The notes: generated from the letters alone by a model not told the origin. Shown: positions 7,009 through 32,000, numbered from the stretch's first letter. The stretch is DNA of 32,000 nucleotides from Phycisphaera mikurensis NBRC 102666 (GCF_000284115.1 NC_017080.1:2010001-2042000), one strand, 5' to 3'. Numbers and translations: made by a program.

Positions 7009-7724
7009 GCCGAGCTCTCCCGCAGGACGCCCGCCACCGCGGACGCCACCGCGAGCGCCTCGGGCCCGTCCCCGTGAACGCAGAGCGTCTCCGCGGCCAC
7101 CGCCGCCTCGCCGCCTTCGCGGAGCGTGACGACGCCGCGGACCGCGAGGCCGCGTGCCTGTTCGGCGGCCCGGTCCGCGGCGAGCACCGCGCCGGCGTGC
7201 CGGCGGCTCAGGAGCACCGGCCGGCCCGTCGCCGACTCCCGCGTGTAGCACCGGTCGGCGAAGGCTTCCGGCACCACCGCGAGGCCGGCGTCCGCGGCCG
7301 CGGCCGCCAGCGCCCCCGAGGCCGGTGTCAGCACGCGAGCGACGCCCGCGCCCGCCAGCCAGGCCGCCAGTCGGGGGGCGAGGCCGGCGTCGGTGTCCGC
7401 CGCTTGGTAGAGGGCGCCGTGGAGCTTCACCGCCGCCGTCTCCGGCAGCCGCGCGAGCTGCCAAGCCAGCGAGCGAGCCAGGCGGTCGAACGGGATCGCC
7501 ATCGCCCGCCGCCCGAAGCCCGACCGATCCGGATACGAGAGGTGCGCCGTGACGGCCACCCCGCGGACCGCGGCCTCCCGGCTCCAGAACGCGGCTTCGT
7601 CCGCGGAGCCCGCGTGGCCGCCACAGGCGACGTTGGCGAGGTCCGCGTGGCCGAGCAACGCGAGGTCCAGCGGGTGGCCGACGCCGCGCTCCCCGAGGTC
7701 GATGTTCAGGAGGAGGCGCTTCAG
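7005..7724 (-). CDS. pxpA: 5-oxoprolinase subunit A (LamB/YcsF family); start codon uncertain (candidate CTG)
   Basis: LNIDLGERG...ANVACGGHAGS...VKLHGALY are LamB/YcsF hallmarks. Homologs start about 3-6 aa before the IDLxxDxGE motif. The only start-like codon there is the CTG at 7724, which overlaps the pxpB stop as CTGA. Confidence 0.7.
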   Translation of the reverse strand: MKRLLLNIDLGERGVGHPLDLALLGHADLANVACGGHAGSADEAAFWSREAAVRGVAVTAHLSYPDRSGFGRRAMAIPFDRLARSLAWQLARLPETAAVKLHGALYQAADTDAGLAPRLAAWLAGAGVARVLTPASGALAAAAADAGLAVVPEAFADRCYTRESATGRPVLLSRRHAGAVLAADRAAEQARGLAVRGVVTLREGGEAAVAAETLCVHGDGPEALAVASAVAGVLRESSA

Positions 7725-8353
7725 GCTCGCACCTCGAAGCGCACGGCGTCGCCGGGGCGGATCGCCTCCAGCAGGGCCGGGTCCGTCGTCCCCACCAGGT
7801 TCCAGCCGCCCGGGCTCGGGGCGGGGTAGACGCCCGCTTGGTCGTTGCCGATCGCGACCGCGCCCGCGGGCACCCGGGTCCGCGGGCTCGCGCGTCGCGG
7901 CGTGGCGAGCCGCGCATCCAGGCCCAGGAGGTACGGGAAGTGCGGGAGGAAGCCGACCGCGGCGACGCCGTAGCGGGGCGTCACGAAGGCCCGGATTGCC
8001 GCCGCTTCCCCCAGGCCCGCCCCGGCCGCCACCGCCGCGAGGTCGGCTCCGTCGAAGCGCGTGGGGAGGACGTGCGTCGCCGACGCCGGCGGCGGCTCCA
8101 CGGCCGCGGCTTCCGCGAGCACGGCCTCGACCGCCACGCGGACCGCCTCGGCGTCCTGCCGCGGATCGAAGTGCACCCCCAGCTCGCCGAGGCCGGGCAC
8201 GGCATCGAGCACGCCGAGGCGCCCGCCGTCCCGCGCCCCCGCCACCGCCCGGTGCGCCGCGAGGATCCGCCGGCTGGTCGCCCGCGAGGGGCCGCCGGGG
8301 AACGGGAACACCCAGCACCCCTCGCCCAGCCGCGCGGGAGCGGCCGCGCTCAT
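7721..8353 (-). CDS. pxpB: 5-oxoprolinase subunit B (allophanate hydrolase subunit 1 / KipI family)
   Basis: Supporting segments: VPGLGELGVHFDP...VLPTRFDGADL...YGVAAVGFLPHFPYLLGLDARLATPRRASPRTRVPAGAVAIGNDQAGVYPAPSPGGWNLVG. The ATG at 8353 overlaps the Nudix stop as ATGA. Confidence 0.8.
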   Translation of the reverse strand: MSAAAPARLGEGCWVFPFPGGPSRATSRRILAAHRAVAGARDGGRLGVLDAVPGLGELGVHFDPRQDAEAVRVAVEAVLAEAAAVEPPPASATHVLPTRFDGADLAAVAAGAGLGEAAAIRAFVTPRYGVAAVGFLPHFPYLLGLDARLATPRRASPRTRVPAGAVAIGNDQAGVYPAPSPGGWNLVGTTDPALLEAIRPGDAVRFEVRA

Positions 8354-14306: not shown

Positions 14307-16007
14307 TCAGCCCGCCGGGGGCGGGAGCTGCGGGGCGCCGGTGTCGCCGGGGTCGGGCGCTTCGCCGAGCTGGATGGGCAGCCGGATGGTGAAGCAGGTG
14401 CCCGCCCCGGGCGCGGACTCCACGCTGATGACGCCGCCGTGCTCGTTGACGATCTTCTGGGTCACGACCAGGCCCAGGCCGGTGCCGCGGAGCCCCTTGG
14501 TGGAGTGGAAGGGCTCGAAGAGGCGGTCGCGGGTGGCGGCGGACATGCCGGCGCCGTTGTCGCGGACGGAGACGACCACCTCGTCGCGGTCGTCGTCGAA
14601 GGACGACGTGATCGTGACCACGCCCTCCTCGGATTCGCAGGCGTCCAGCGCGTTGGACAGCAGGTTCAGCATCGCCTGGTGCAAGCCGCCGCCGTCGAGC
14701 GGCAGCGGGGCGAGGTCCGCCGCGAAGTCGGTGACCAGCGCCACCTTGGCGGCCTCGAACTGCGGGGTCAGCAGCGCCACCGCCTCCTCCAGCAGCGGGT
14801 TGAGGTTCGTCATCTCGAACTCGGGCCGCCGCTGCTTGCTGAAGGCGAGCATGTTCATCGTCAGCTCGTAGATCCGCTCGAGGTTGCGGCTCACGATCTT
14901 CCAGCCCGAGACCACCACCGGCGTGTTGTTCTTCTTGAGGCCCAGGTCGACCACGTCGGCGCCGCCGCGGAGGCCTTGCAAGATGTTCTTGATGGAGTGG
15001 CTCAGCGACGCCACCGTCTGGCCGACGGCCGCGAGCCGCTCGGCGCGGACGCGAGCCTCCACCAGCCGCAGGTTCGCCAGCGCGAGGCCGGTCTGGGTGC
15101 CGATCGCGGTGAGCAGCGCGAGCTGGTCTTCGGTGTAGGTGTAGTTGGCGACCTGGCTGTCCAGGTGGATCACGCCGTAGAAGCGGTGCTTGTAGCGGAT
15201 CGGCACACACATCGCGGAGTGGATGTGGAAGCCCTGCACGCTGTCGCCGCTGGCGAAGCGGCGGTCGTTCATCGCGTTGCTGGTGAGCACGCCGACGTTC
15301 TTGCGCGTCACGTACTCGACGATCGTCTTGGAGTACGCGATCGGGGTCGCGGGCGTGCCGGGGGGGGCGGTCTCCGGTGCGGCGGCGCGTTGCCGGACGA
15401 CCACCGGGAGCAGCTCGCTGCCCACTTCCTCGCCGACGAGGATGAAGCCGCGGTCCGCGTCGAAGTGGTCGAAGACCGTGTCCATCACCCGCGTGAACAG
15501 CTGGGGCTTCTCCTTGAGCGACCCCACCAGCGAGACCAGCTCGTAGAGCACGTTCAGCTGGAACTGGGCCGACTGCCGCGGCTCGGGCGAGCTCATGATG
15601 ACCGAGTCGTCGCTGCTCTGGACCTGGTGCTCGAGGTGGATGTCCATCTCGCCGCGTTCCACCGGGCGGAGCCGCGTGCCGGGCTCACGCCGGCTCCGCG
15701 CGAAGGCCAACGCCCCGTCCCCGAAGCTCAGCAGCGTGGATCCGGCCCGGATCTGATCGCCGACCTTGAGCGTCCGCGATCCGGTGACCCGCACGCCGTT
15801 GACGTAGGTGCCGTTGCTGGACTCCAGGTCGCGCAGCACCCAGACGCCGTGCTCGGGATCGGGCGTGAGCTCCACGTGCCGCCGCGAGATCGTCCGGTCC
15901 GTCAGCGGCAACGCCTCGCTGGACCGCCCGATCTGCTGCGGCTCGTGGTCGGGGAGCTCGAACCGGCGCCCGCGGTCGGGGCCTGCGATGACGGTGAGAA
16001 CAAGCAT
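14307..16007 (-). CDS. FHA-GAF-histidine kinase sensor protein
   Basis: N-terminal FHA domain ([22 protein letters not shown]...SSNGTYVNG). GAF-like middle region. HisKA segment [19 protein letters not shown]. HATPase_c segment DNGAGM...[24 protein letters not shown]. Confidence 0.85.
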
Positions 16008-18620: not shown

Positions 18621-18623
18621 AAG

Positions 18624-18710
18624 CGGAGAGACAGGGATTCGAACCCTGGGTGCACTTGCATGCACACACGAATTCCAGTCGTGCGCCTTAAACCACTCAG
18701 CCATCTCTCC
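18624..18710 (-). tRNA. tRNA-Ser (anticodon GGA)
   Basis: Minus-strand read GGAGAGA-TG-GCTGAGTGGTTTAAGGCG-CACGA-CTGGAAT-TCGTG-(long variable arm GTGCATGCAAGTGCAC)-CAGGGTTCGAATCCCTG-TCTCTCC-G. The 7-bp acceptor stem, the TTCGAAT T-loop and the long variable arm fit a class II Ser tRNA. CCA is not encoded. Confidence 0.9.
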
Positions 18711-26333: not shown

Positions 26334-26928
26334 GAGGCGAAGCGAGGACAGCCGCGACCTCGAGGACGTGCTCGACACGCTCAAGGAGGAGGCGGACGGG
26401 CAGGAAGACGGCCGCCTCACCCTTGGCGAGGTCATCGACGCGTTCCGCCACCGGCCCGCCGGCACGCTGCTGCTCGTGCCCGCCGTCGTGATGGTGTCGC
26501 CGCTGGGCGCCATCCCCTCCGTGCCCACCGTCACCGCCGCGCTCGTGGCTCTCATCGCCGCGCAGATGCTCTTCGCCCGCAGCACCCCCTGGGTGCCGGG
26601 CTTCCTCCGACACCGCGGCCTCGCTCCGGAGAGAGTGATCTCCGCCGTCGACAAGAGCCGCCCGGTCGCCCGCTTCCTCGATCGCTTCATCCGCCCCCGA
26701 CTCCAGCCCCTCACCGGCGAGATCGGCCGCCGCGTCATCGCCATCGTCTGCGTCCTGCTCTCCGTGCTCACCCCGCCCCTGGAGCTGGTCCCCTTCGCCG
26801 TCTACCTCCCCGGCACCGCCATCCTGCTCCTCTCCCTCGCCCTCGTCGGCCGCGACGGCCTGCTGGCCGCCGTGGGGCTCGCCCTCGCCGCGGCGGGGCT
26901 CGCCACCGCGGCGTGGACGCTCCTCTAA
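26320..26928 (+). CDS. ExoD-like exopolysaccharide synthesis membrane protein
   Basis: LGEVIDAFRHRPAGTLLLVPAVVMVSPLGAIPSVPT...PWVPGFLRHR followed by C-terminal TM helices fits the ExoD family layout. The ATG at 26320 overlaps the DUF1622 gene by 14 nt. Confidence 0.65.
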   Translation: MHRNERRSEDSRDLEDVLDTLKEEADGQEDGRLTLGEVIDAFRHRPAGTLLLVPAVVMVSPLGAIPSVPTVTAALVALIAAQMLFARSTPWVPGFLRHRGLAPERVISAVDKSRPVARFLDRFIRPRLQPLTGEIGRRVIAIVCVLLSVLTPPLELVPFAVYLPGTAILLLSLALVGRDGLLAAVGLALAAAGLATAAWTLL

Positions 26929-27067: not shown

Positions 27068-27475
27068 TCAACTCCGGTCGCTCTTCTGCAGCAGCACGGG
27101 CACCTCCAGGCTGTCGCCCTCGATCATGAGGTCCTCCGTGGTGTCCCAGCCGACCGACTCCTCCTCGGCGGGCCGCAGGGTGCCGGCCGAGGGCGTGAGG
27201 GCCAGCCGCCGGGCCGCCTCCTTGCCGTGCCAGTGCAGGCCGAAGCGGGGAGGCTCCTTCCCCTCGTCGACGGGCGTCTCGCCGACGAGGGCCTTGAGCG
27301 CCTCCACGTCCACCGCCGGCCCGGTCTTGCCCTCGGTCACCACCCCCGGGAACAGCGCCGCCAGCTTCAGAAGATTCTCTCGCGCGACGTCGGCGGACTG
27401 CGGAAGCGCGCCGCCACGGGGACGGCGGTGGGGGAGGGAGCGTCGGCCATGCGGCCGTTGTACCTCGCCACGCCG
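27068..27475 (-). pseudogene. Remnant of the N-terminus of an N6-adenine DNA methyltransferase (type III Mod / type IIG-like); catalytic domain missing
   Basis: One frame reads ...DVARENLLKLAALFPGVVTEGKTGPAVDVEALKALVGETPVDEGKEPPRFGLHWHGKEAARRLALTPSAGTLRPAEEESVGWDTTEDLMIEGDSLEVPVLLQKS then stops. This follows the conserved Mod-type N-terminal pattern (LxxLFPExFTEGKIDxxxLKxLLGE, YGLxWxGK, GTLxP, NLxIEGDNLEVLKLLQKSY). The nearest ATG (27450) is in another frame. The DPPY catalytic region is absent; only a weak shifted trace, LIEDDLPGP, remains. Confidence 0.6.
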
Positions 27476-27497
27476 TCACAGAACCGGGTGTGGCGGC

Positions 27498-30071
27498 TCA
27501 GGCGGGAACGCGGGCGCCTTGGACGAGCCCAGCGAGGCGGTCCCGCAGCTCGCTGAAGATGGGTGTCTCGTAGGGGTCTGCGGCTTCGACGGTGACGGCG
27601 AGCCCGAAGGGGACGTCCTCCGTCAGGCCGCCGGCGGTTTCGCGGCAGTTGACCTTGAGGTCGAGGTGGTCGTCGTCCCCGACGGCCACGACGGCGTCGG
27701 TCTCGAAGACGAGGTGCTGGACGGACCCGCGGCGGGAGAGGGTTTCGTCGGCGTCCCGGGGGGTACCGAGGAGCTCGGCGACGGTTTCTTCGTGGGTGAG
27801 GAAGAGGCCGGCCCGGGTGTGGCCGCGGTGCCGCGGGTTGAGCGGGCTTAGCCAGGCGAGCGTGAGCACGACCCGCCTCCGCAGCTTCTTGCCGCCCAGT
27901 GCGGAGGGGATGGGCACGCGGAAGGTGGCGGCCTCGCCGTCGTTCAGCCGGCCCGTGCCGAGGAGGAGCACGCGTTGGTCCGTGGAGACGCGGCTCCGCT
28001 CGGGGTCGACGGCGCCGAAGCCCAATGCGGCGGCTTTGTTCTGACGGAAGGCACGCCAACACTTCTGATCGTTGGGGCCGCAGTGGGCGTCGAGTTCGTC
28101 GGCATCGGTGCCCCAGGACGCGCCGTGGACGAGCAGGGCCTTGGTGAGGACGGCGAGCCGGTCGTCGGCGAGGGCGGGCGCGTCGGTTTCCTCGCGGAGG
28201 GCGAGGAGGTTTTCGAAGATCCGGGAGGCGAGGCGCGTGGCGTTGGCGGCGGCGTTGCTGGTGCCACGCGTGTGGACGCGGTGGCCGAGGACGCCGGGGG
28301 TGGTCGACGGGGCGGCGACGAGCTGGCCGGGGAGCTGCGGGGCGTGGTTGATGCGGAAGCTCACGCCGCCGGTGTTCATCCGCGTGCCGTAGTACTGCCG
28401 GCCGCCGGGGAGGAGGATCTCGGGCTTCACGGAGCGCTTCCACCCGGCTCCGATCGGATTGATGGGGCTGGGCAGCGGGCGGCCGTCGAGCAGGTCGCGG
28501 TACGCGATGCCGCCGGGCCGTGCCGGCTCGTCGGCCCCGTCGGCGTGCAGCGAGCCGACGGTGAGGGCGTTGACGGCTTCGGCGGGGGAGAGCAGGCGGC
28601 GGGACCCGCGGTCGGCCTGCAGACCGCCGAGCACGGCGGCCCGTCGATCTTCTGGAGTGAGCCGATCGAACTCGATCTGAGTGAGGTCGATCTGCACGTC
28701 GTCGTCGACGTTGCCGGCGCTCACGAGGAAGAGAAGATTGTGCTCCCAGGCGAGGAAGTCGATCAAGCGGGCGAGCGGGCTGAGCTCGCGGAGGAAGCGT
28801 TGGTGGGCGTTGCCGAGCGAGACGTTCACGATCCGCACCGAAGGCGCGGTGGCGGACTCGGCTCCATCGCCGCAAACGATGCCGCGGACGGCGCGGTGGA
28901 ACAGGTCGACGAAGAGGCGGTCCGCGGGCCAGGTTTCGGCCGCATCGGCGGAGCCGCCGGGGTGCATGACGGGGCGAGCGTGGATCGGGCGGCCGAGCGG
29001 GGCCTCGCCGAGGGCGAGATCGCCGTGAACGATCTGCGAGGCCATGGCGGTGCCGTGGCGGCGGGACCCGGCGGGGTAGCGGGCCGCGAAATCGTCGGGG
29101 TCGACGATCTGGACACGATCGACGAGGTCGGTGTGGTTGCCGAGCGGGAGCCCGTCGAGCAGGGCGACGATCGGACTCCCGCTGGGCAGCGGGCGGTCGA
29201 GGGCGGGGGCGGGCGGGGCGGTTTGCGTCTCGGGCGGGACGGCGACCGCACTCTGGCCGCCGCCGCGGAAGAACATGACCTCGTCGCACCGCAGCATCCG
29301 GACGTATTCATCTTCCTTAAGCGCCGCCAGCGCAGCCTCGACGCCGGCCCGCGGGCAGGCCACGCAGGCGGCGTGGTAGCGGATGCCGGGGATGCGGCTC
29401 TCGTCGACGATGGAGGCGCCGCTCTCCTTCAGGGCGCGTTCGAGAGACGCACGAGCCTGGTCGGCGCGGCGAGGGCGGTCGGAGTACCAGAACTCGGCTT
29501 GGAAGAAGATCGGGTCGTCGCCGGTTTCGAGGCGTTGCTCCCACCAGGACTCAAGCCCGGTGTCGAGCACGCGGTCGGCCTCGCTCCAGAGGCGGACGTC
29601 GGTGAGGTGCTTGAAGACGTCGAAGATCGGAGCGGCCCCGGTGGGGGCGTCCTCCGCGTCTTGATACCTCCTCCACAGGACGAGGAGGCGGCTCATCGCG
29701 TCGCGGTTGGTGAAGAGCGCGTAGAGGCGTCGATCGACCGGCTCCCCCGCGTTGAAGCCATCGACGGTGGCGGGTTCGAGATCGAGCTCCAGCAGCCATT
29801 CGAGGTCCTGCACGCGATCGGCGGCCTCGGCGAACGCACGCAGGCCGGCGGCTCCGCCGACCGCGACCTCCAGCACGACGACCCGCTCGACATCGCCTGC
29901 CCCGAGGGCGTCGGTCGGTTCCGCGAGCGAATCGCGGATCCTCTGAAGATCCGCGAAGTAGCGATTTTGATGCTCCCGGGACGGGCTTCGGGGCGGAGTG
30001 CCGCCACCGCGAAGGGGGTCTCGCTCCGCAATCGCCGGCTGGCCGAGCAGGAGGATGGGCTGGTCGGCCAT
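27498..30071 (-). CDS. S8 (subtilisin-like) serine peptidase with a ~300-aa N-terminal domain of unknown function; IetS-like
   Basis: ATG at 30071 with GAGG immediately upstream. The catalytic set is in subtilase order: D306 (VALLDGLP), H339 (RRHGTAMAS), N453 (LVSAGN) and S604 (TRGTSNAAAN). Product is 857 aa. It starts 9 nt downstream of the AAA+ ATPase gene. Confidence 0.85.
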   Translation of the reverse strand: MADQPILLLGQPAIAERDPLRGGGTPPRSPSREHQNRYFADLQRIRDSLAEPTDALGAGDVERVVVLEVAVGGAAGLRAFAEAADRVQDLEWLLELDLEPATVDGFNAGEPVDRRLYALFTNRDAMSRLLVLWRRYQDAEDAPTGAAPIFDVFKHLTDVRLWSEADRVLDTGLESWWEQRLETGDDPIFFQAEFWYSDRPRRADQARASLERALKESGASIVDESRIPGIRYHAACVACPRAGVEAALAALKEDEYVRMLRCDEVMFFRGGGQSAVAVPPETQTAPPAPALDRPLPSGSPIVALLDGLPLGNHTDLVDRVQIVDPDDFAARYPAGSRRHGTAMASQIVHGDLALGEAPLGRPIHARPVMHPGGSADAAETWPADRLFVDLFHRAVRGIVCGDGAESATAPSVRIVNVSLGNAHQRFLRELSPLARLIDFLAWEHNLLFLVSAGNVDDDVQIDLTQIEFDRLTPEDRRAAVLGGLQADRGSRRLLSPAEAVNALTVGSLHADGADEPARPGGIAYRDLLDGRPLPSPINPIGAGWKRSVKPEILLPGGRQYYGTRMNTGGVSFRINHAPQLPGQLVAAPSTTPGVLGHRVHTRGTSNAAANATRLASRIFENLLALREETDAPALADDRLAVLTKALLVHGASWGTDADELDAHCGPNDQKCWRAFRQNKAAALGFGAVDPERSRVSTDQRVLLLGTGRLNDGEAATFRVPIPSALGGKKLRRRVVLTLAWLSPLNPRHRGHTRAGLFLTHEETVAELLGTPRDADETLSRRGSVQHLVFETDAVVAVGDDDHLDLKVNCRETAGGLTEDVPFGLAVTVEAADPYETPIFSELRDRLAGLVQGARVPA

Positions 30072-30080
30072 CCTCGGACG

Positions 30081-31088
30081 CTACCGGGCGTCGCCCGCGT
30101 TCGCCTGCGTCACGCGGGACTTCCACTGCCGTAGGCGGGCGTCGGCGATGGAGCGGGCGGGTGCGCCGCCGCCGGCGAGGACCTGCCGGCGGGCGAGATC
30201 GAGCAGGAACTCCTCGGCCTCGGCGAAGCTGGTGGGCCCGAGCTTGTCGGCGAGCGTTCGGGCGGCGTAGCCGAAGGGGCGGCCGAGACGATCCTGCCAC
30301 GCCTCGACGAATTGCGTGAGCTGGCCGCGGCCGGGTGGAGGAATCTGGAGGCGGAGCTGGAACCGCCGCCACACGGCCCGGTCCAGCAGCTCGGCGTGGT
30401 TGGTGGCGGTGACGACGACGACGTACGACGGCAGGTCGTCCATCTGCAACAGCAGGGAACTGACGATCCGTTTGATCTCTCCGGAGTCCTGCGCGTCGCC
30501 CCGCTCCTTGCCGAGCGTGTCGAACTCGTCGAAGAAGAGGACGCAGGCGCGGGTGGAAGCCCGCTCGAAGAGCTTCCGCAGACGGGTGGCGGTCTCGCCG
30601 AGGTAGCTGCCGATGAGGGCGTCATACCGCACGGTGAGCAGCGGGACCATCAGCTCGTAGGCGAGGCCCTCGGCGATGGATGTTTTTCCGTTGCCGGGTG
30701 GACCGGAGAGCAGCACGCGGTGGCGGGGCTCGAGGTTGTGGCTCCGTAGGACGTCAGCCCGCTGCTGTTCTTCCACCAGCTCTCGAAGAGCTGCCGCGGC
30801 GGCCTCGGGGAGCAGCAGCTGGTCGAGGCCGCGGGCGGCGGTCGCCTCGTGCACAAGCGTGGTGGCGGCGACGTGCTCGACCTGGCCGCGGTTGAAGAGG
30901 GCGGGGACGCCGTTGCGGGCATCCGCATCGGGTGTCCGCCGCAGTTCGGTGTCGAGACGCTCGGCGAGGACCACATGCCGCTTCGCACGCTCGTCGGCGA
31001 TCAGCGCCTCCACCGCCCGGGCGAACGCGGGGCGGTTGCCGGTGGTGCCGGCTTTCACCAAGCTGAGGAGGAGGTCGGAGCGGGCCAC
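30081..31088 (-). CDS. Classic-clade AAA+ ATPase; IetA-like
   Basis: Walker A LLSGPPGNGKTS. Walker B VLFFDEFD. Sensor-1 and Arg-finger region VVVTATNHAELLDRAVWRRF. GTG start at 31088. Product is 335 aa. Confidence 0.85.
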   Translation of the reverse strand: MARSDLLLSLVKAGTTGNRPAFARAVEALIADERAKRHVVLAERLDTELRRTPDADARNGVPALFNRGQVEHVAATTLVHEATAARGLDQLLLPEAAAAALRELVEEQQRADVLRSHNLEPRHRVLLSGPPGNGKTSIAEGLAYELMVPLLTVRYDALIGSYLGETATRLRKLFERASTRACVLFFDEFDTLGKERGDAQDSGEIKRIVSSLLLQMDDLPSYVVVVTATNHAELLDRAVWRRFQLRLQIPPPGRGQLTQFVEAWQDRLGRPFGYAARTLADKLGPTSFAEAEEFLLDLARRQVLAGGGAPARSIADARLRQWKSRVTQANAGDAR

Positions 31089-31231: not shown

Positions 31232-31561
31232 TTATTTCTCGCGGCGGGCTTTGTCCTGGAAGCCGCGGATGGTGGCGTCGAGGGCGCGTAGCTCGGCGGC
31301 GTCCACGGCGAGGGCGGCGGGGTCGCGGCTGGGGTCCCAGCGGAAGCCGCCGACGAGGGGGGCGGCGTCAGCGGTGGCGAGGGCGAGGGACCAGCGGCGG
31401 AGGACGGCGGCGAGGCTCGCATCGTTGGGAGCCGGGGCGAGGGCGGCGAGCAGCTCGGCGGGGTGCGCGGTGGGGAGATCGCAGCGGAACCCGCGGACGG
31501 TGAAGCAGATCAGCCGTTCTCCGCTGCCGTCCGCGGATTCGGCATGCTCCAGAAGGAGCAT
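31232..31561 (-). CDS. Hypothetical 109-aa protein upstream of the ATPase/protease pair
   Basis: ATG at 31561 and TAA at 31232. Third codon positions are almost all G or C, as in real genes here. The sequence MLLLEHAESADGSGERLICFTVRGF... has no motif I recognise. Confidence 0.45.
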   Translation of the reverse strand: MLLLEHAESADGSGERLICFTVRGFRCDLPTAHPAELLAALAPAPNDASLAAVLRRWSLALATADAAPLVGGFRWDPSRDPAALAVDAAELRALDATIRGFQDKARREK

Positions 31562-31859: not shown

Positions 31860-32000
31860 ATGGCGAAGAAGCGGACGTGGCCGGAGGCGATCGAGCAGGT
31901 GTTGCGCGACGAGGGCGGACCGCTCCACTACGTGGAGATCACGGAGCGGATTGTCGCAGGCGGGCTCAAAGAAACCTCAGGCGCAACGCCAGCCGCGACT
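31860..32000 (+). CDS. HARE-HTH / winged-helix N-terminal domain protein; 3' end outside the window
   Basis: ATG at 31860, and the frame stays open to the window end. MAKKRTWPEAIEQVLRDEGGPLHYVEITERIVAGGLKETSGATPAAT follows the HARE-HTH pattern (xAAxxVLxxxGxPLHxxEIxxxIxxxGLxxTSGKTPxxT). That pattern is seen at the N-termini of restriction and defence proteins and of RpoE-delta. Confidence 0.55.
   Translation, partial: MAKKRTWPEAIEQVLRDEGGPLHYVEITERIVAGGLKETSGATPAAT

What the first reader, a model, noticed from the sequence alone, without database searches (positions are those of the whole stretch)
27498..31088. AAA+ ATPase plus S8 subtilase two-gene module (IetAS-like) in a defence-island-like context
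A 335-aa classic AAA+ ATPase has intact Walker A and B motifs and an Arg finger. Nine nt downstream, with a GAGG directly before its ATG, starts an 857-aa S8 peptidase with an intact D/H/N/S catalytic set.

As far as I recall, an ATPase plus S8 protease gene pair is the architecture described as the IetAS anti-phage system. I am not aware that its mechanism has been resolved.

The context supports a defence role:
- a decayed DNA methyltransferase gene lies immediately downstream;
- an unknown small ORF lies upstream;
- a HARE-HTH protein gene lies beyond that.

By eye, the segment also contains more AT-containing stretches than the flanking housekeeping genes. I did not compute this.
Basis: partly seen in the sequence, partly recalled or inferred. 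Interest (0 to 1): 0.7.

Follow-up and report, generated by a model that had tools for sequence, protein, structure and literature searches.

The report
IetAS-type ATPase–protease defence gene pair
This is an intact copy of a known two-gene bacterial anti-virus module, IetAS (an ATP-driven protein remodeller plus a toxic protease), in the chromosome of Phycisphaera mikurensis; it is a routine database-detectable member of a family whose mechanism is still unsolved.

Summary
On the minus strand, a 335-aa AAA+ ATPase (30081-31088) is followed after 9 nt, with GAGG before the ATG, by an 857-aa S8 peptidase (27498-30071). All catalytic motifs are intact.

PADLOC profiles match both proteins end to end: IetA PDLC04232 at 7e-141 and IetS PDLC04233 at 5e-262. 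The pair is therefore an IetAS-family module. It belongs to a clade distinct from the one NCBIfam's IteA/IteS models describe (both scores far below cut-off), and it is only 23-26% identical in the protease core to the Agrobacterium and Klebsiella plasmid versions.

The ATPase-protease pairing held wherever it could be checked: in 5 of 5 genomic loci and in 77 of 80 metagenomic loci (the other 3 sit at a contig edge). These loci come from many phyla and often lie next to TA, restriction-modification, Thoeris or mobile-element genes. None of 80 related Planctomycetota plsX loci carries the pair.

The 109-aa ORF and the HARE-HTH gene are not conserved partners. The methyltransferase is a truncated type III Mod remnant. 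Base composition is not diagnostic.

The most likely mechanism is toxin-antitoxin-like abortive infection. This is a new member of a known kind, of low to moderate interest.

The parts
30081..31088 (-). ietA: 335-aa classic-clade AAA+ ATPase, the antitoxin/regulator component. Walker A is at 30681-30704 (K135 codon 30684-30686), pore-loop-1 YLG at 30597-30605, Walker B D187-E188 at 30525-30530, and R241-R242 at 30363-30368.
   Evidence: PADLOC IetA PDLC04232 7e-141, full length. Pfam AAA 4.2e-31. The best matches among solved structures are the D2 rings of VCP/p97/Cdc48, 1e-42 to 1e-39. Motif positions come and codons were checked.
30072..30080 (-). 9-nt intergenic spacer cgtccGAGG, which places a Shine-Dalgarno-like GAGG directly before the ietS ATG. 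This is an operon junction.
   Evidence: Read directly from the sequence. In homologous loci the distance from the end of the IetA alignment to the inferred IetS start is 6-83 nt in 74 loci; in 3 more the 248-nt figure is unreliable because IetS aligns only from residue 111.
27498..30071 (-). ietS: 857-aa intracellular S8 (subtilisin-like) serine protease, the toxin/effector. Residues 1-30 form a conserved tail carrying the R-GGG...P..R..Q motif. Residues ~60-270 form two tandem ferredoxin-like domains. Residues ~300-690 form the S8 catalytic domain (codons: D306 29154-29156, H339 29055-29057, N454 28710-28712, S605 28257-28259). Residues ~700-830 form a beta-sandwich, followed by a terminal helix.
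   Evidence: PADLOC IetS PDLC04233 5e-262 over residues 1-850. Pfam Peptidase_S8. Invariant residues in the 97-sequence alignment. AlphaFold model with pLDDT 89.6 and pTM 0.93. Foldseek hits to PCSK9, pro-Tk-subtilisin, furin and Kex2.
27068..27343 (-). Context only, not part of the system: a truncated N-terminal remnant of a type III restriction-modification Mod methyltransferase.
   Evidence: PADLOC MTase_III PDLC03634 2.7e-26, profile positions 27-112 of 621. No further Mod sequence lies before the convergent ExoD gene, which ends at 26928.
31232..31561 (-). Context only: a 109-aa ORF of unknown function upstream of ietA. It is not a conserved partner of the pair.
   Evidence: No Pfam, PADLOC or NCBIfam hit. 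It is called as a gene in two assemblies. No homologue lies next to the pair in 80 metagenomic loci, and none is listed among the called genes of 5 genomic loci.
31860..32000 (+). Context only: the start of a 256-aa HARE-HTH protein gene, transcribed divergently and running off the window.
   Evidence: Translation. The full gene is in L001 at 7442-8212, with Pfam HARE-HTH 3e-13. It is absent from the 80 homologous loci.

Best explanation
The two genes form an intact IetAS-family module of the clade modelled by PADLOC PDLC04232/PDLC04233. It is carried in a non-conserved stretch of the Phycisphaera mikurensis chromosome.

Shown here:
- family membership;
- operon arrangement;
- intact active sites;
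- strict pairing of the two genes across phyla;
- a variable neighbourhood rich in defence genes and mobile elements.

Inferred mechanism:
1. IetA assembles into a hexameric, Cdc48/FtsH/Vps4-like protein unfoldase. It has a canonical aromatic-hydrophobic-Gly pore loop.
2. Using ATP, IetA keeps the cytoplasmic protease IetS harmless. It probably does so by engaging the conserved N-terminal tail or the tandem ferredoxin-like pro-region of IetS.
3. On infection, a phage protein disturbs this restraint, directly or indirectly.
4. Free IetS then cleaves cellular (and perhaps phage) proteins. This stops growth and aborts the infection.

The same toxin-antitoxin logic would also stabilise the DNA segment that carries the pair.
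For: Family:
- Full-length PADLOC IetA and IetS matches.
- The Paracoccus plasmid pair of the same clade scores likewise.

Pairing:
- An IetA homologue (47-63% identity) lies directly upstream on the same strand in 77 of 80 metagenomic loci. The other 3 have IetS at or within about 530 nt of the contig end, leaving no room for an upstream ATPase gene.
- The same holds in 5 of 5 genomic loci.

Unfoldase character of IetA:
- Best matches among solved structures are VCP/p97/Cdc48 D2 and FtsH.
- The YLG pore loop, Walker A and B motifs and the RR box are intact.

Protease:
- The catalytic residues are invariant or at least 90% conserved in 97 sequences.
- I saw no hydrophobic, signal-like N-terminus by eye in the sequence; no predictor was run.
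- The fold resembles proprotein convertases and pro-subtilisin, which carry an inhibitory pro-domain.
- Residues 1-30 are confidently modelled only in the full-length protein: pLDDT 91-94 against about 60 in the isolated N-terminal model.

Literature:
- IetS is the toxin and IetA the antitoxin. An ietA mutant could not be built, and protease activity is required for defence (PMC13069673).
- The AAA/S8 pair is a toxin-antitoxin system in mycoplasmas (PMC8562856).
- B. cereus IetAS acts by abortive infection and is triggered by phage SPbeta YosG.

Context:
- Thoeris, HipA, PIN, ParE, AbiEi, MazE, ArdA, a transposase and an MmeI system lie next to homologues.
- 90 plasmids carry IetS relatives.
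Against: - No experiment exists for this clade or this organism. The validated systems belong to other clades.
- NCBIfam IteA scores 215 bits against a cut-off of 510, and IteS scores 48.5 against 900.
- Identity to the Agrobacterium and Klebsiella plasmid proteases is 23-26%, in the catalytic region only.
- How IetA restrains IetS is pure inference. No complex could be modelled and model coordinates could not be inspected.
- The N-terminal domains have only weak, generic fold matches (E about 1e-3, TM 0.2-0.38).
- In this genome no complete second defence system was identified beside the pair.
- Composition does not mark it as foreign.
Confidence: 0.6

Rival explanations
1. The pair is a pure addiction (toxin-antitoxin) module. 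It stabilises a chromosomal island or a former plasmid segment by post-segregational killing and has no anti-phage role in this organism.
For: The founding ietAS was described as a plasmid-stability TA system of pTiC58 (cited). The AAA/S8 pair behaves as a TA system in mycoplasmas. Relatives are common on rhizobial and other plasmids: 90 records, more than half conjugative or mobilizable. The Paracoccus homologue sits between mobilization and type IV secretion genes.
Against: TA and defence roles are not exclusive. Homologues from other clades protect against phage. Homologues of this clade sit next to Thoeris, restriction-modification and Abi genes on chromosomes. No integrase, transposase or boundary repeats were found around this copy.
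Confidence: 0.2
2. The pair is a two-component ATP-dependent protease. IetA recognises and unfolds specific phage (or host) proteins and hands them to IetS for degradation, giving direct, non-suicidal immunity in the manner of ClpXP or FtsH.
For: IetA belongs to the unfoldase branch of AAA+ and has an intact substrate-threading pore loop. The two genes are strictly coupled. Protease activity is required for defence.
Against: IetS is toxic without IetA, and IetA behaves as an antitoxin. The B. cereus system shows abortive-infection behaviour. The model of IetS is a monomeric multidomain subtilase resembling convertases, not a self-compartmentalised chamber that would need an unfoldase.
Confidence: 0.12
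3. The pair is a housekeeping protein-quality-control or maturation protease pair of Phycisphaera, unrelated to conflict systems.
For: The left flank is housekeeping: ExoD, UbiA, rpmF-plsX-fabHD. Composition is not foreign.
Against: The pair is absent from all 80 related plsX loci. Its closest relatives are scattered across unrelated phyla at 35-44% identity. Both proteins give specific full-length matches to defence-system profiles.
Confidence: 0.03

Closest known systems
IetAS anti-phage system (Gao et al. 2020, from my own knowledge; PADLOC 'ietAS'; NCBIfam IteA NF042959 / IteS NF042956)
   Same: Both are two co-oriented genes, an AAA+ ATPase followed by an S8 protease, with intact ATPase and protease motifs. 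Both proteins match PADLOC IetA/IetS profiles over their full length.
   Different: This pair belongs to another clade. It scores far below the NCBIfam equivalog cut-offs (215 against 510, and 48.5 against 900). Only residues 408-654 of the protease align to the IteS profile. The N-terminal ~290 residues are specific to this clade: 824 clusters, essentially all in ~850-880-aa proteins.
ietA/ietS plasmid-stability toxin-antitoxin system of Agrobacterium pTiC58 (Yamamoto et al. 2009, as cited) and Agrobacterium/Klebsiella plasmid homologues
   Same: The gene order, toxin-antitoxin logic and AAA+/S8 chemistry are the same. The IetA N-terminal helix and the IetS N-terminal R-GGG...P..R..Q motif are shared with the Agrobacterium pAt12D1 and Klebsiella plasmid pairs, but the motif is not seen in the annotated N-terminus of the Agrobacterium pAt15-1187 protease.
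   Different: Protease identity is only 26% (Agrobacterium pAt15-1187, 742 aa) and 23% over 211 residues (Klebsiella plasmid, 836 aa). Those proteins fall under other PADLOC models, best PDLC02198. The pTiC58 sequence itself was not retrieved.
ietHAS (Liu-DS4), the IetAS variant with an SNF2 helicase IetH (PMC13069673)
   Same: An SNF2-family helicase gene (1281 aa, with a SWIM zinc finger) lies 1.8 kb upstream of ietA on the same strand. SNF2-type helicases also lie near IetS in 8 of 80 metagenomic loci and in L003.
   Different: Here the helicase is separated from ietA by a divergently transcribed HARE-HTH gene and the 109-aa ORF, so it is not in the operon. Its profile hits (DpdE, ZorD, DrmD) reflect the shared SNF2 helicase core and do not assign it to one system. 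No functional link was shown.
Mycoplasma AAA-ATPase / subtilisin-like protease TA132/133 (PMC8562856)
   Same: It is a chromosomal AAA+ antitoxin plus S8 toxin pair organised as an operon, with signs of horizontal transfer.
   Different: The proteins differ in size (353 and 757 aa). No sequence comparison was made here, and no phage role has been reported for it.
Proprotein convertases and pro-subtilisins (PCSK9, furin/Kex2, pro-Tk-subtilisin)
   Same: These are the best structural matches to the IetS model. They share an S8 catalytic core plus flanking N-terminal alpha/beta and C-terminal beta-sandwich domains.
   Different: Identity is 12-15%. They are secreted or secretory-pathway enzymes with no AAA+ partner. 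Whether the IetS N-terminal region acts as an inhibitory pro-domain is untested.

Membership tests
IetAS defence system (PADLOC definition) | Protein matching an IetA profile | tested here: met
   PDLC04232 7e-141, residues 1-330 against profile positions 1-324 of 330. It also matches PDLC02196 at 1.7e-74.
IetAS defence system (PADLOC definition) | Protein matching an IetS profile | tested here: met
   PDLC04233 5e-262, residues 1-850 against profile positions 1-848 of 855.
IetAS defence system (PADLOC definition) | The two genes are adjacent and co-oriented, ATPase first | tested here: met
   A 9-nt spacer on the same strand. The same order is found in 77 of 80 metagenomic loci and 5 of 5 genomic loci.
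IetAS defence system | Intact ATPase (Walker A and B, Arg residues) and protease (Asp/His/Ser) active sites | tested here: met
   K135, D187/E188 and R241/R242 in IetA. D306, H339, N454 and S605 in IetS are invariant or at least 90% conserved in 97 sequences.
IetAS, validated clade (NCBIfam equivalogs IteA NF042959 / IteS NF042956) | Score at or above the curated equivalog cut-off | tested here: not met
   IteA scores 215.2 bits against 510. IteS scores 48.5 against 900. The Agrobacterium, Paracoccus and Klebsiella plasmid pairs also fail these cut-offs, so the models are narrow.
IetAS defence system | Toxin (IetS) neutralised by antitoxin (IetA); phage protection on expression | not testable with these tools
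   This needs cloning, toxicity assays and plaque assays. The only support comes from the literature on other clades.
ietHAS (three-gene variant with SNF2 helicase) | SNF2 helicase encoded in the same operon as ietA and ietS | tested here: not met
   The SNF2 gene (L001 3347-7192) is separated from ietA by a divergent HARE-HTH gene and the 109-aa ORF.
Type III restriction-modification system | Full-length Mod methyltransferase plus Res helicase-nuclease | tested here: not met
   Only a 91-aa N-terminal Mod remnant is present, covering profile positions 27-112 of 621. No Res gene was seen among the called genes or ORFs of the surrounding 22 kb.

The most novel reading that the evidence does not exclude
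The PDLC04233 clade comprises about 824 sequence clusters at 50% identity across many phyla, and I found no report of any member being tested. It could be a mechanistically distinct IetAS subtype. In that reading, the clade-specific tandem ferredoxin-like N-terminal region is a sensor or inhibitory pro-domain. The N-terminal R-GGG...P..R..Q tail, shared with the pAt12D1 and Klebsiella proteases that are otherwise at most ~26% identical, is the handle that the IetA unfoldase pulls on, or an autoprocessing site, to switch the protease on or off. That would be a general activation principle for AAA+/subtilase immune modules.
Probability: 0.2. Interest if true: 0.55.

Novelty: new member of a known kind. 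Interest (0 to 1): 0.27.

Why it matters
IetAS is a widespread defence and toxin-antitoxin module. Its anti-phage mechanism was still called unknown in a 2026 paper.

This copy adds a planctomycete example and shows three things. First, the PADLOC-modelled clade is large. Second, it is strictly two-gene. Third, it is built from a Cdc48-like unfoldase and a convertase-like protease with an extra N-terminal region.

The N-terminal motif shared across clades, and the predicted docking of the tail onto the protease body, give concrete mutagenesis targets. However, the same experiments can be done more easily with the E. coli or Bacillus homologues. The locus itself therefore opens no new question.

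Tried and rejected
- Genome scan with IetS alone. A genome-contig scan returned no relative. Probably the exact-peptide patterns were too strict, or the source region is masked. I replaced it with a plsX scan and an alignment-based metagenome scan.
- Solved structures. A sequence search of the PDB with IetS gave no hit.
- Island boundaries. I found no integrase. The only nearby tRNA (tRNA-Ala, off-window) faces away from the pair. All direct and inverted repeats are GC-rich chance matches.
- Promoters and terminators. The scan found no promoter and only one terminator-like site, at chance level.
- Composition. GC and GC3 lie within the native range, so they are not evidence of foreign origin.
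- The 109-aa ORF or the HARE-HTH protein as a third component. Rejected, because they occur in 0 of 80 homologous loci.
- The SWIM-SNF2 helicase as IetH. Not supported by gene arrangement.
- A functional type III restriction-modification partner. Rejected, because only a Mod remnant survives.
Full report
**Observation**

The window comes from the chromosome of Phycisphaera mikurensis. An exact-sequence look-up of the protease finds it in GCA_014207395.1, and the identical database protein is named 'S8 family peptidase [Phycisphaera mikurensis]'.

The junction reads TAG cgtccgagg ATG, so the 9-nt spacer and the GAGG directly before the ATG are real. Third-position GC is 0.89 in the called frame of both genes. 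The many long ORFs overlapping them in other frames and on the opposite strand are artefacts of a 73% GC genome.

Motifs of the ATPase:
- Walker A GPPGNGKT at residues 129-136, with K135
- Walker B D187-E188
- a canonical pore-loop-1 Y162-L163-G164
- sensor-1 N230
- R241-R242 within LDRAVWRRF

The protease has D306, H339, N454 and S605. D306, H339 and S605 are invariant and N454 is at least 90% conserved in a 97-sequence alignment.

**What it is**

- PADLOC profiles match both proteins end to end: IetA PDLC04232 at 7e-141 and IetS PDLC04233 at 5e-262.
- Pfam sees only the generic AAA and Peptidase_S8 domains.
- NCBIfam's narrow equivalogs, built around the validated system, are missed by a wide margin. 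IteA scores 215 bits against a cut-off of 510, and IteS scores 48.5 against 900.
- IetS-like proteins form several very distant clades. An Agrobacterium pAt protease (742 aa) is 26% identical to this one, from about residue 337 onward, with no alignment of the N-terminal third. A Klebsiella plasmid protease (836 aa) is 23% identical over 211 residues. Both fall under other PADLOC models.
- A Paracoccus plasmid pair belongs to the same clade as this one.

The pair is therefore a clear member of the IetAS family as PADLOC defines it. It lies in a clade different from the one the NCBIfam models describe.

**Pairing and distribution**

A protein search found 905 relatives. The best are full-length proteins of about 860 aa at 35-44% identity, from Pirellulales, KSB1, Acidobacteriota, Desulfofundulus, Gammaproteobacteria and Nitrospiraceae. 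Only one cluster is closer, at 69%.

In five genomic loci the AAA+ gene sits directly upstream of the protease. The neighbours vary:
- ArdA, a transposase, PIN and an SNF2/DUF1156/DUF499 cluster
- MazE
- ParE and AbiEi
- an MmeI-type enzyme
- a complete-looking Thoeris system with HipA and PIN_4

In 80 metagenomic loci, an IetA homologue (47-63% identity) lies immediately upstream on the same strand in 77. The other three have IetS at or within about 530 nt of the contig end. Ninety plasmids carry IetS relatives, mainly in rhizobia.

By contrast, 80 Planctomycetota loci centred on plsX keep rpmF-plsX-fabH-fabD. None has IetS, a credible IetA, or even the ExoD/DUF1622/UbiA/AP-endonuclease genes that separate the pair from rpmF here. 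The pair is therefore not in a conserved housekeeping context.

**Context in this genome**

- Left flank: housekeeping and metabolic genes.
- Immediately downstream of ietS: a 91-aa ORF matching only positions 27-112 of a 621-position type III Mod profile. The convergent ExoD gene ends 140 nt further on. This is a truncated remnant, not a frameshift-decayed gene.
- A published analysis reports non-random co-localisation of type III restriction-modification and ietAS in E. coli (bioRxiv 10.1101/2022.08.21.504612). In my 80 loci, a similar Mod N-terminus is within 8 kb in only 3.
- Upstream: the 109-aa ORF has no family hit. It has no homologue near any of the 80 metagenomic loci by tblastn, and the called genes next to the 5 genomic homologues show no counterpart.
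- The HARE-HTH gene is divergent, runs off the window, and is likewise absent from the 80 homologous loci.
- Beyond the window lie a 1281-aa SWIM+SNF2 helicase, an Rce1-like protease, tRNA-Ala and a 911-aa protein with a weak LmuB hit.
- Composition gives no clear signal. GC dips to 0.67-0.71 from the helicase 3' half to ietS, but similar values occur elsewhere in the window. GC3 of 0.89 is matched by other native genes.
- I found no integrase and no boundary repeats.

**Anatomy and likely mechanism**

IetA is most similar to the D2 rings of VCP/p97/Cdc48 and to FtsH. It has an intact aromatic-hydrophobic-glycine pore loop. From established knowledge of classic-clade AAA+ proteins, this marks a hexameric protein unfoldase or translocase.

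The IetS model is confident (pLDDT 89.6, pTM 0.93). It contains:
- an N-terminal tail, residues 1-30
- two tandem beta-alpha-beta-type domains, residues ~60-270
- a poorly modelled linker
- the S8 core, residues ~300-690
- a C-terminal beta-sandwich and a terminal helix

Its best structural matches are PCSK9, pro-Tk-subtilisin, furin and Kex2. These are subtilases with regulatory pro-domains and P-domains.

The N-terminal region alone matches only generic tandem ferredoxin-like folds, weakly: ACT regulatory domains, cage proteins and Cas6. It occurs almost exclusively at the start of ~850-880-aa proteins (824 clusters).

Residues 1-30 are confidently placed only in the full-length model, which suggests that they dock on the protease body. 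They carry an R-GGG...P..R..Q motif, shared with the Agrobacterium pAt12D1 and Klebsiella proteases, that the Paracoccus protease of this clade also carries.

The literature adds the following:
- IetS is a toxin and IetA its antitoxin. An ietA mutant could not be constructed, and protease activity is needed for defence (PMC13069673).
- The AAA/S8 pair is a toxin-antitoxin system in mycoplasmas (PMC8562856).
- A B. cereus IetAS acts by abortive infection and is triggered by the SPbeta protein YosG.

The best-supported model is that IetA uses ATP to hold IetS inactive. A phage cue breaks this restraint, and the freed protease arrests the cell. The steps that involve the tail or pro-region are inference.

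**Rivals**

- A pure addiction module is compatible with the plasmid distribution, but it does not exclude defence.
- A ClpXP-like degradation machine fits the unfoldase, but not the toxicity of IetS alone or the abortive phenotype.
- A housekeeping role is contradicted by the distribution.

**Verdict**

This is a new member of a known kind that standard defence-annotation tools would flag automatically. Interest is low to moderate. It rests mainly on the unresolved mechanism of the family, and on the clade-specific N-terminal region and shared tail motif as targets for experiments.

Noticed in passing
window 29982-30071 (IetS residues 1-30); also L007, L170, L171: An N-terminal motif, [RH]-GGG-x4-5-P-x-R-[DE]-[RH]-Q, is shared with the Agrobacterium pAt12D1 and Klebsiella plasmid IetS proteins, which are otherwise at most ~26% identical, and with the same-clade Paracoccus protein. 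It is not seen in the annotated N-terminus of the pAt15-1187 protein. In the full-length model the tail has pLDDT 91-94, but only about 60 when the N-terminal region is modelled alone, which suggests that it docks on the protease body.
   Followed up: partly
L001 3347-7192 (off-window, beyond window position 32000): A 1281-aa SWIM zinc-finger + SNF2 helicase lies 1.8 kb upstream of ietA on the same strand, with strong matches to SNF2-helicase profiles of several systems (DpdE, ZorD, DrmD). SNF2-type helicases also lie 1.3-6 kb downstream of IetS in 8 of 80 metagenomic loci, and directly downstream in L003. This recalls the validated ietHAS variant.
   Followed up: partly
window 27068-27343 (-): A truncated N-terminal remnant of a type III Mod methyltransferase (about 90 of about 620 profile positions) sits directly after ietS. 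Co-localisation of type III restriction-modification with ietAS has been reported in E. coli, but a similar Mod N-terminus is near only 3 of 80 homologous loci.
   Followed up: partly
window 31860-32000 (+), continuing in L001 7442-8212: A 256-aa HARE-HTH protein gene is transcribed divergently from the 109-aa ORF. It sits at the lowest-GC point of the region (0.67). Its C-terminal part has only weak PADLOC PDC-S14 hits.
   Followed up: partly
L001 1-2109 (off-window): tRNA-Ala(cgc) lies beside a 911-aa alanine-rich protein that contains GC-rich tandem-like repeats and has a weak LmuB-like (SMC ATPase) hit. This may be another accessory segment.
   Followed up: no
window 27975-30134 (+) and 27367-29289 (-): Very long ORFs (719 and 640 aa) overlap ietS on the opposite strand and in another frame. 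The codon-position GC pattern shows they are non-coding artefacts of the high-GC genome.
   Followed up: yes
window 14307-16007 (-) and 18623-18710 (-): An FHA-GAF-histidine-kinase protein gene and a tRNA-Ser(gga) lie among housekeeping genes in the left part of the window. They are unrelated to the finding.
   Followed up: no
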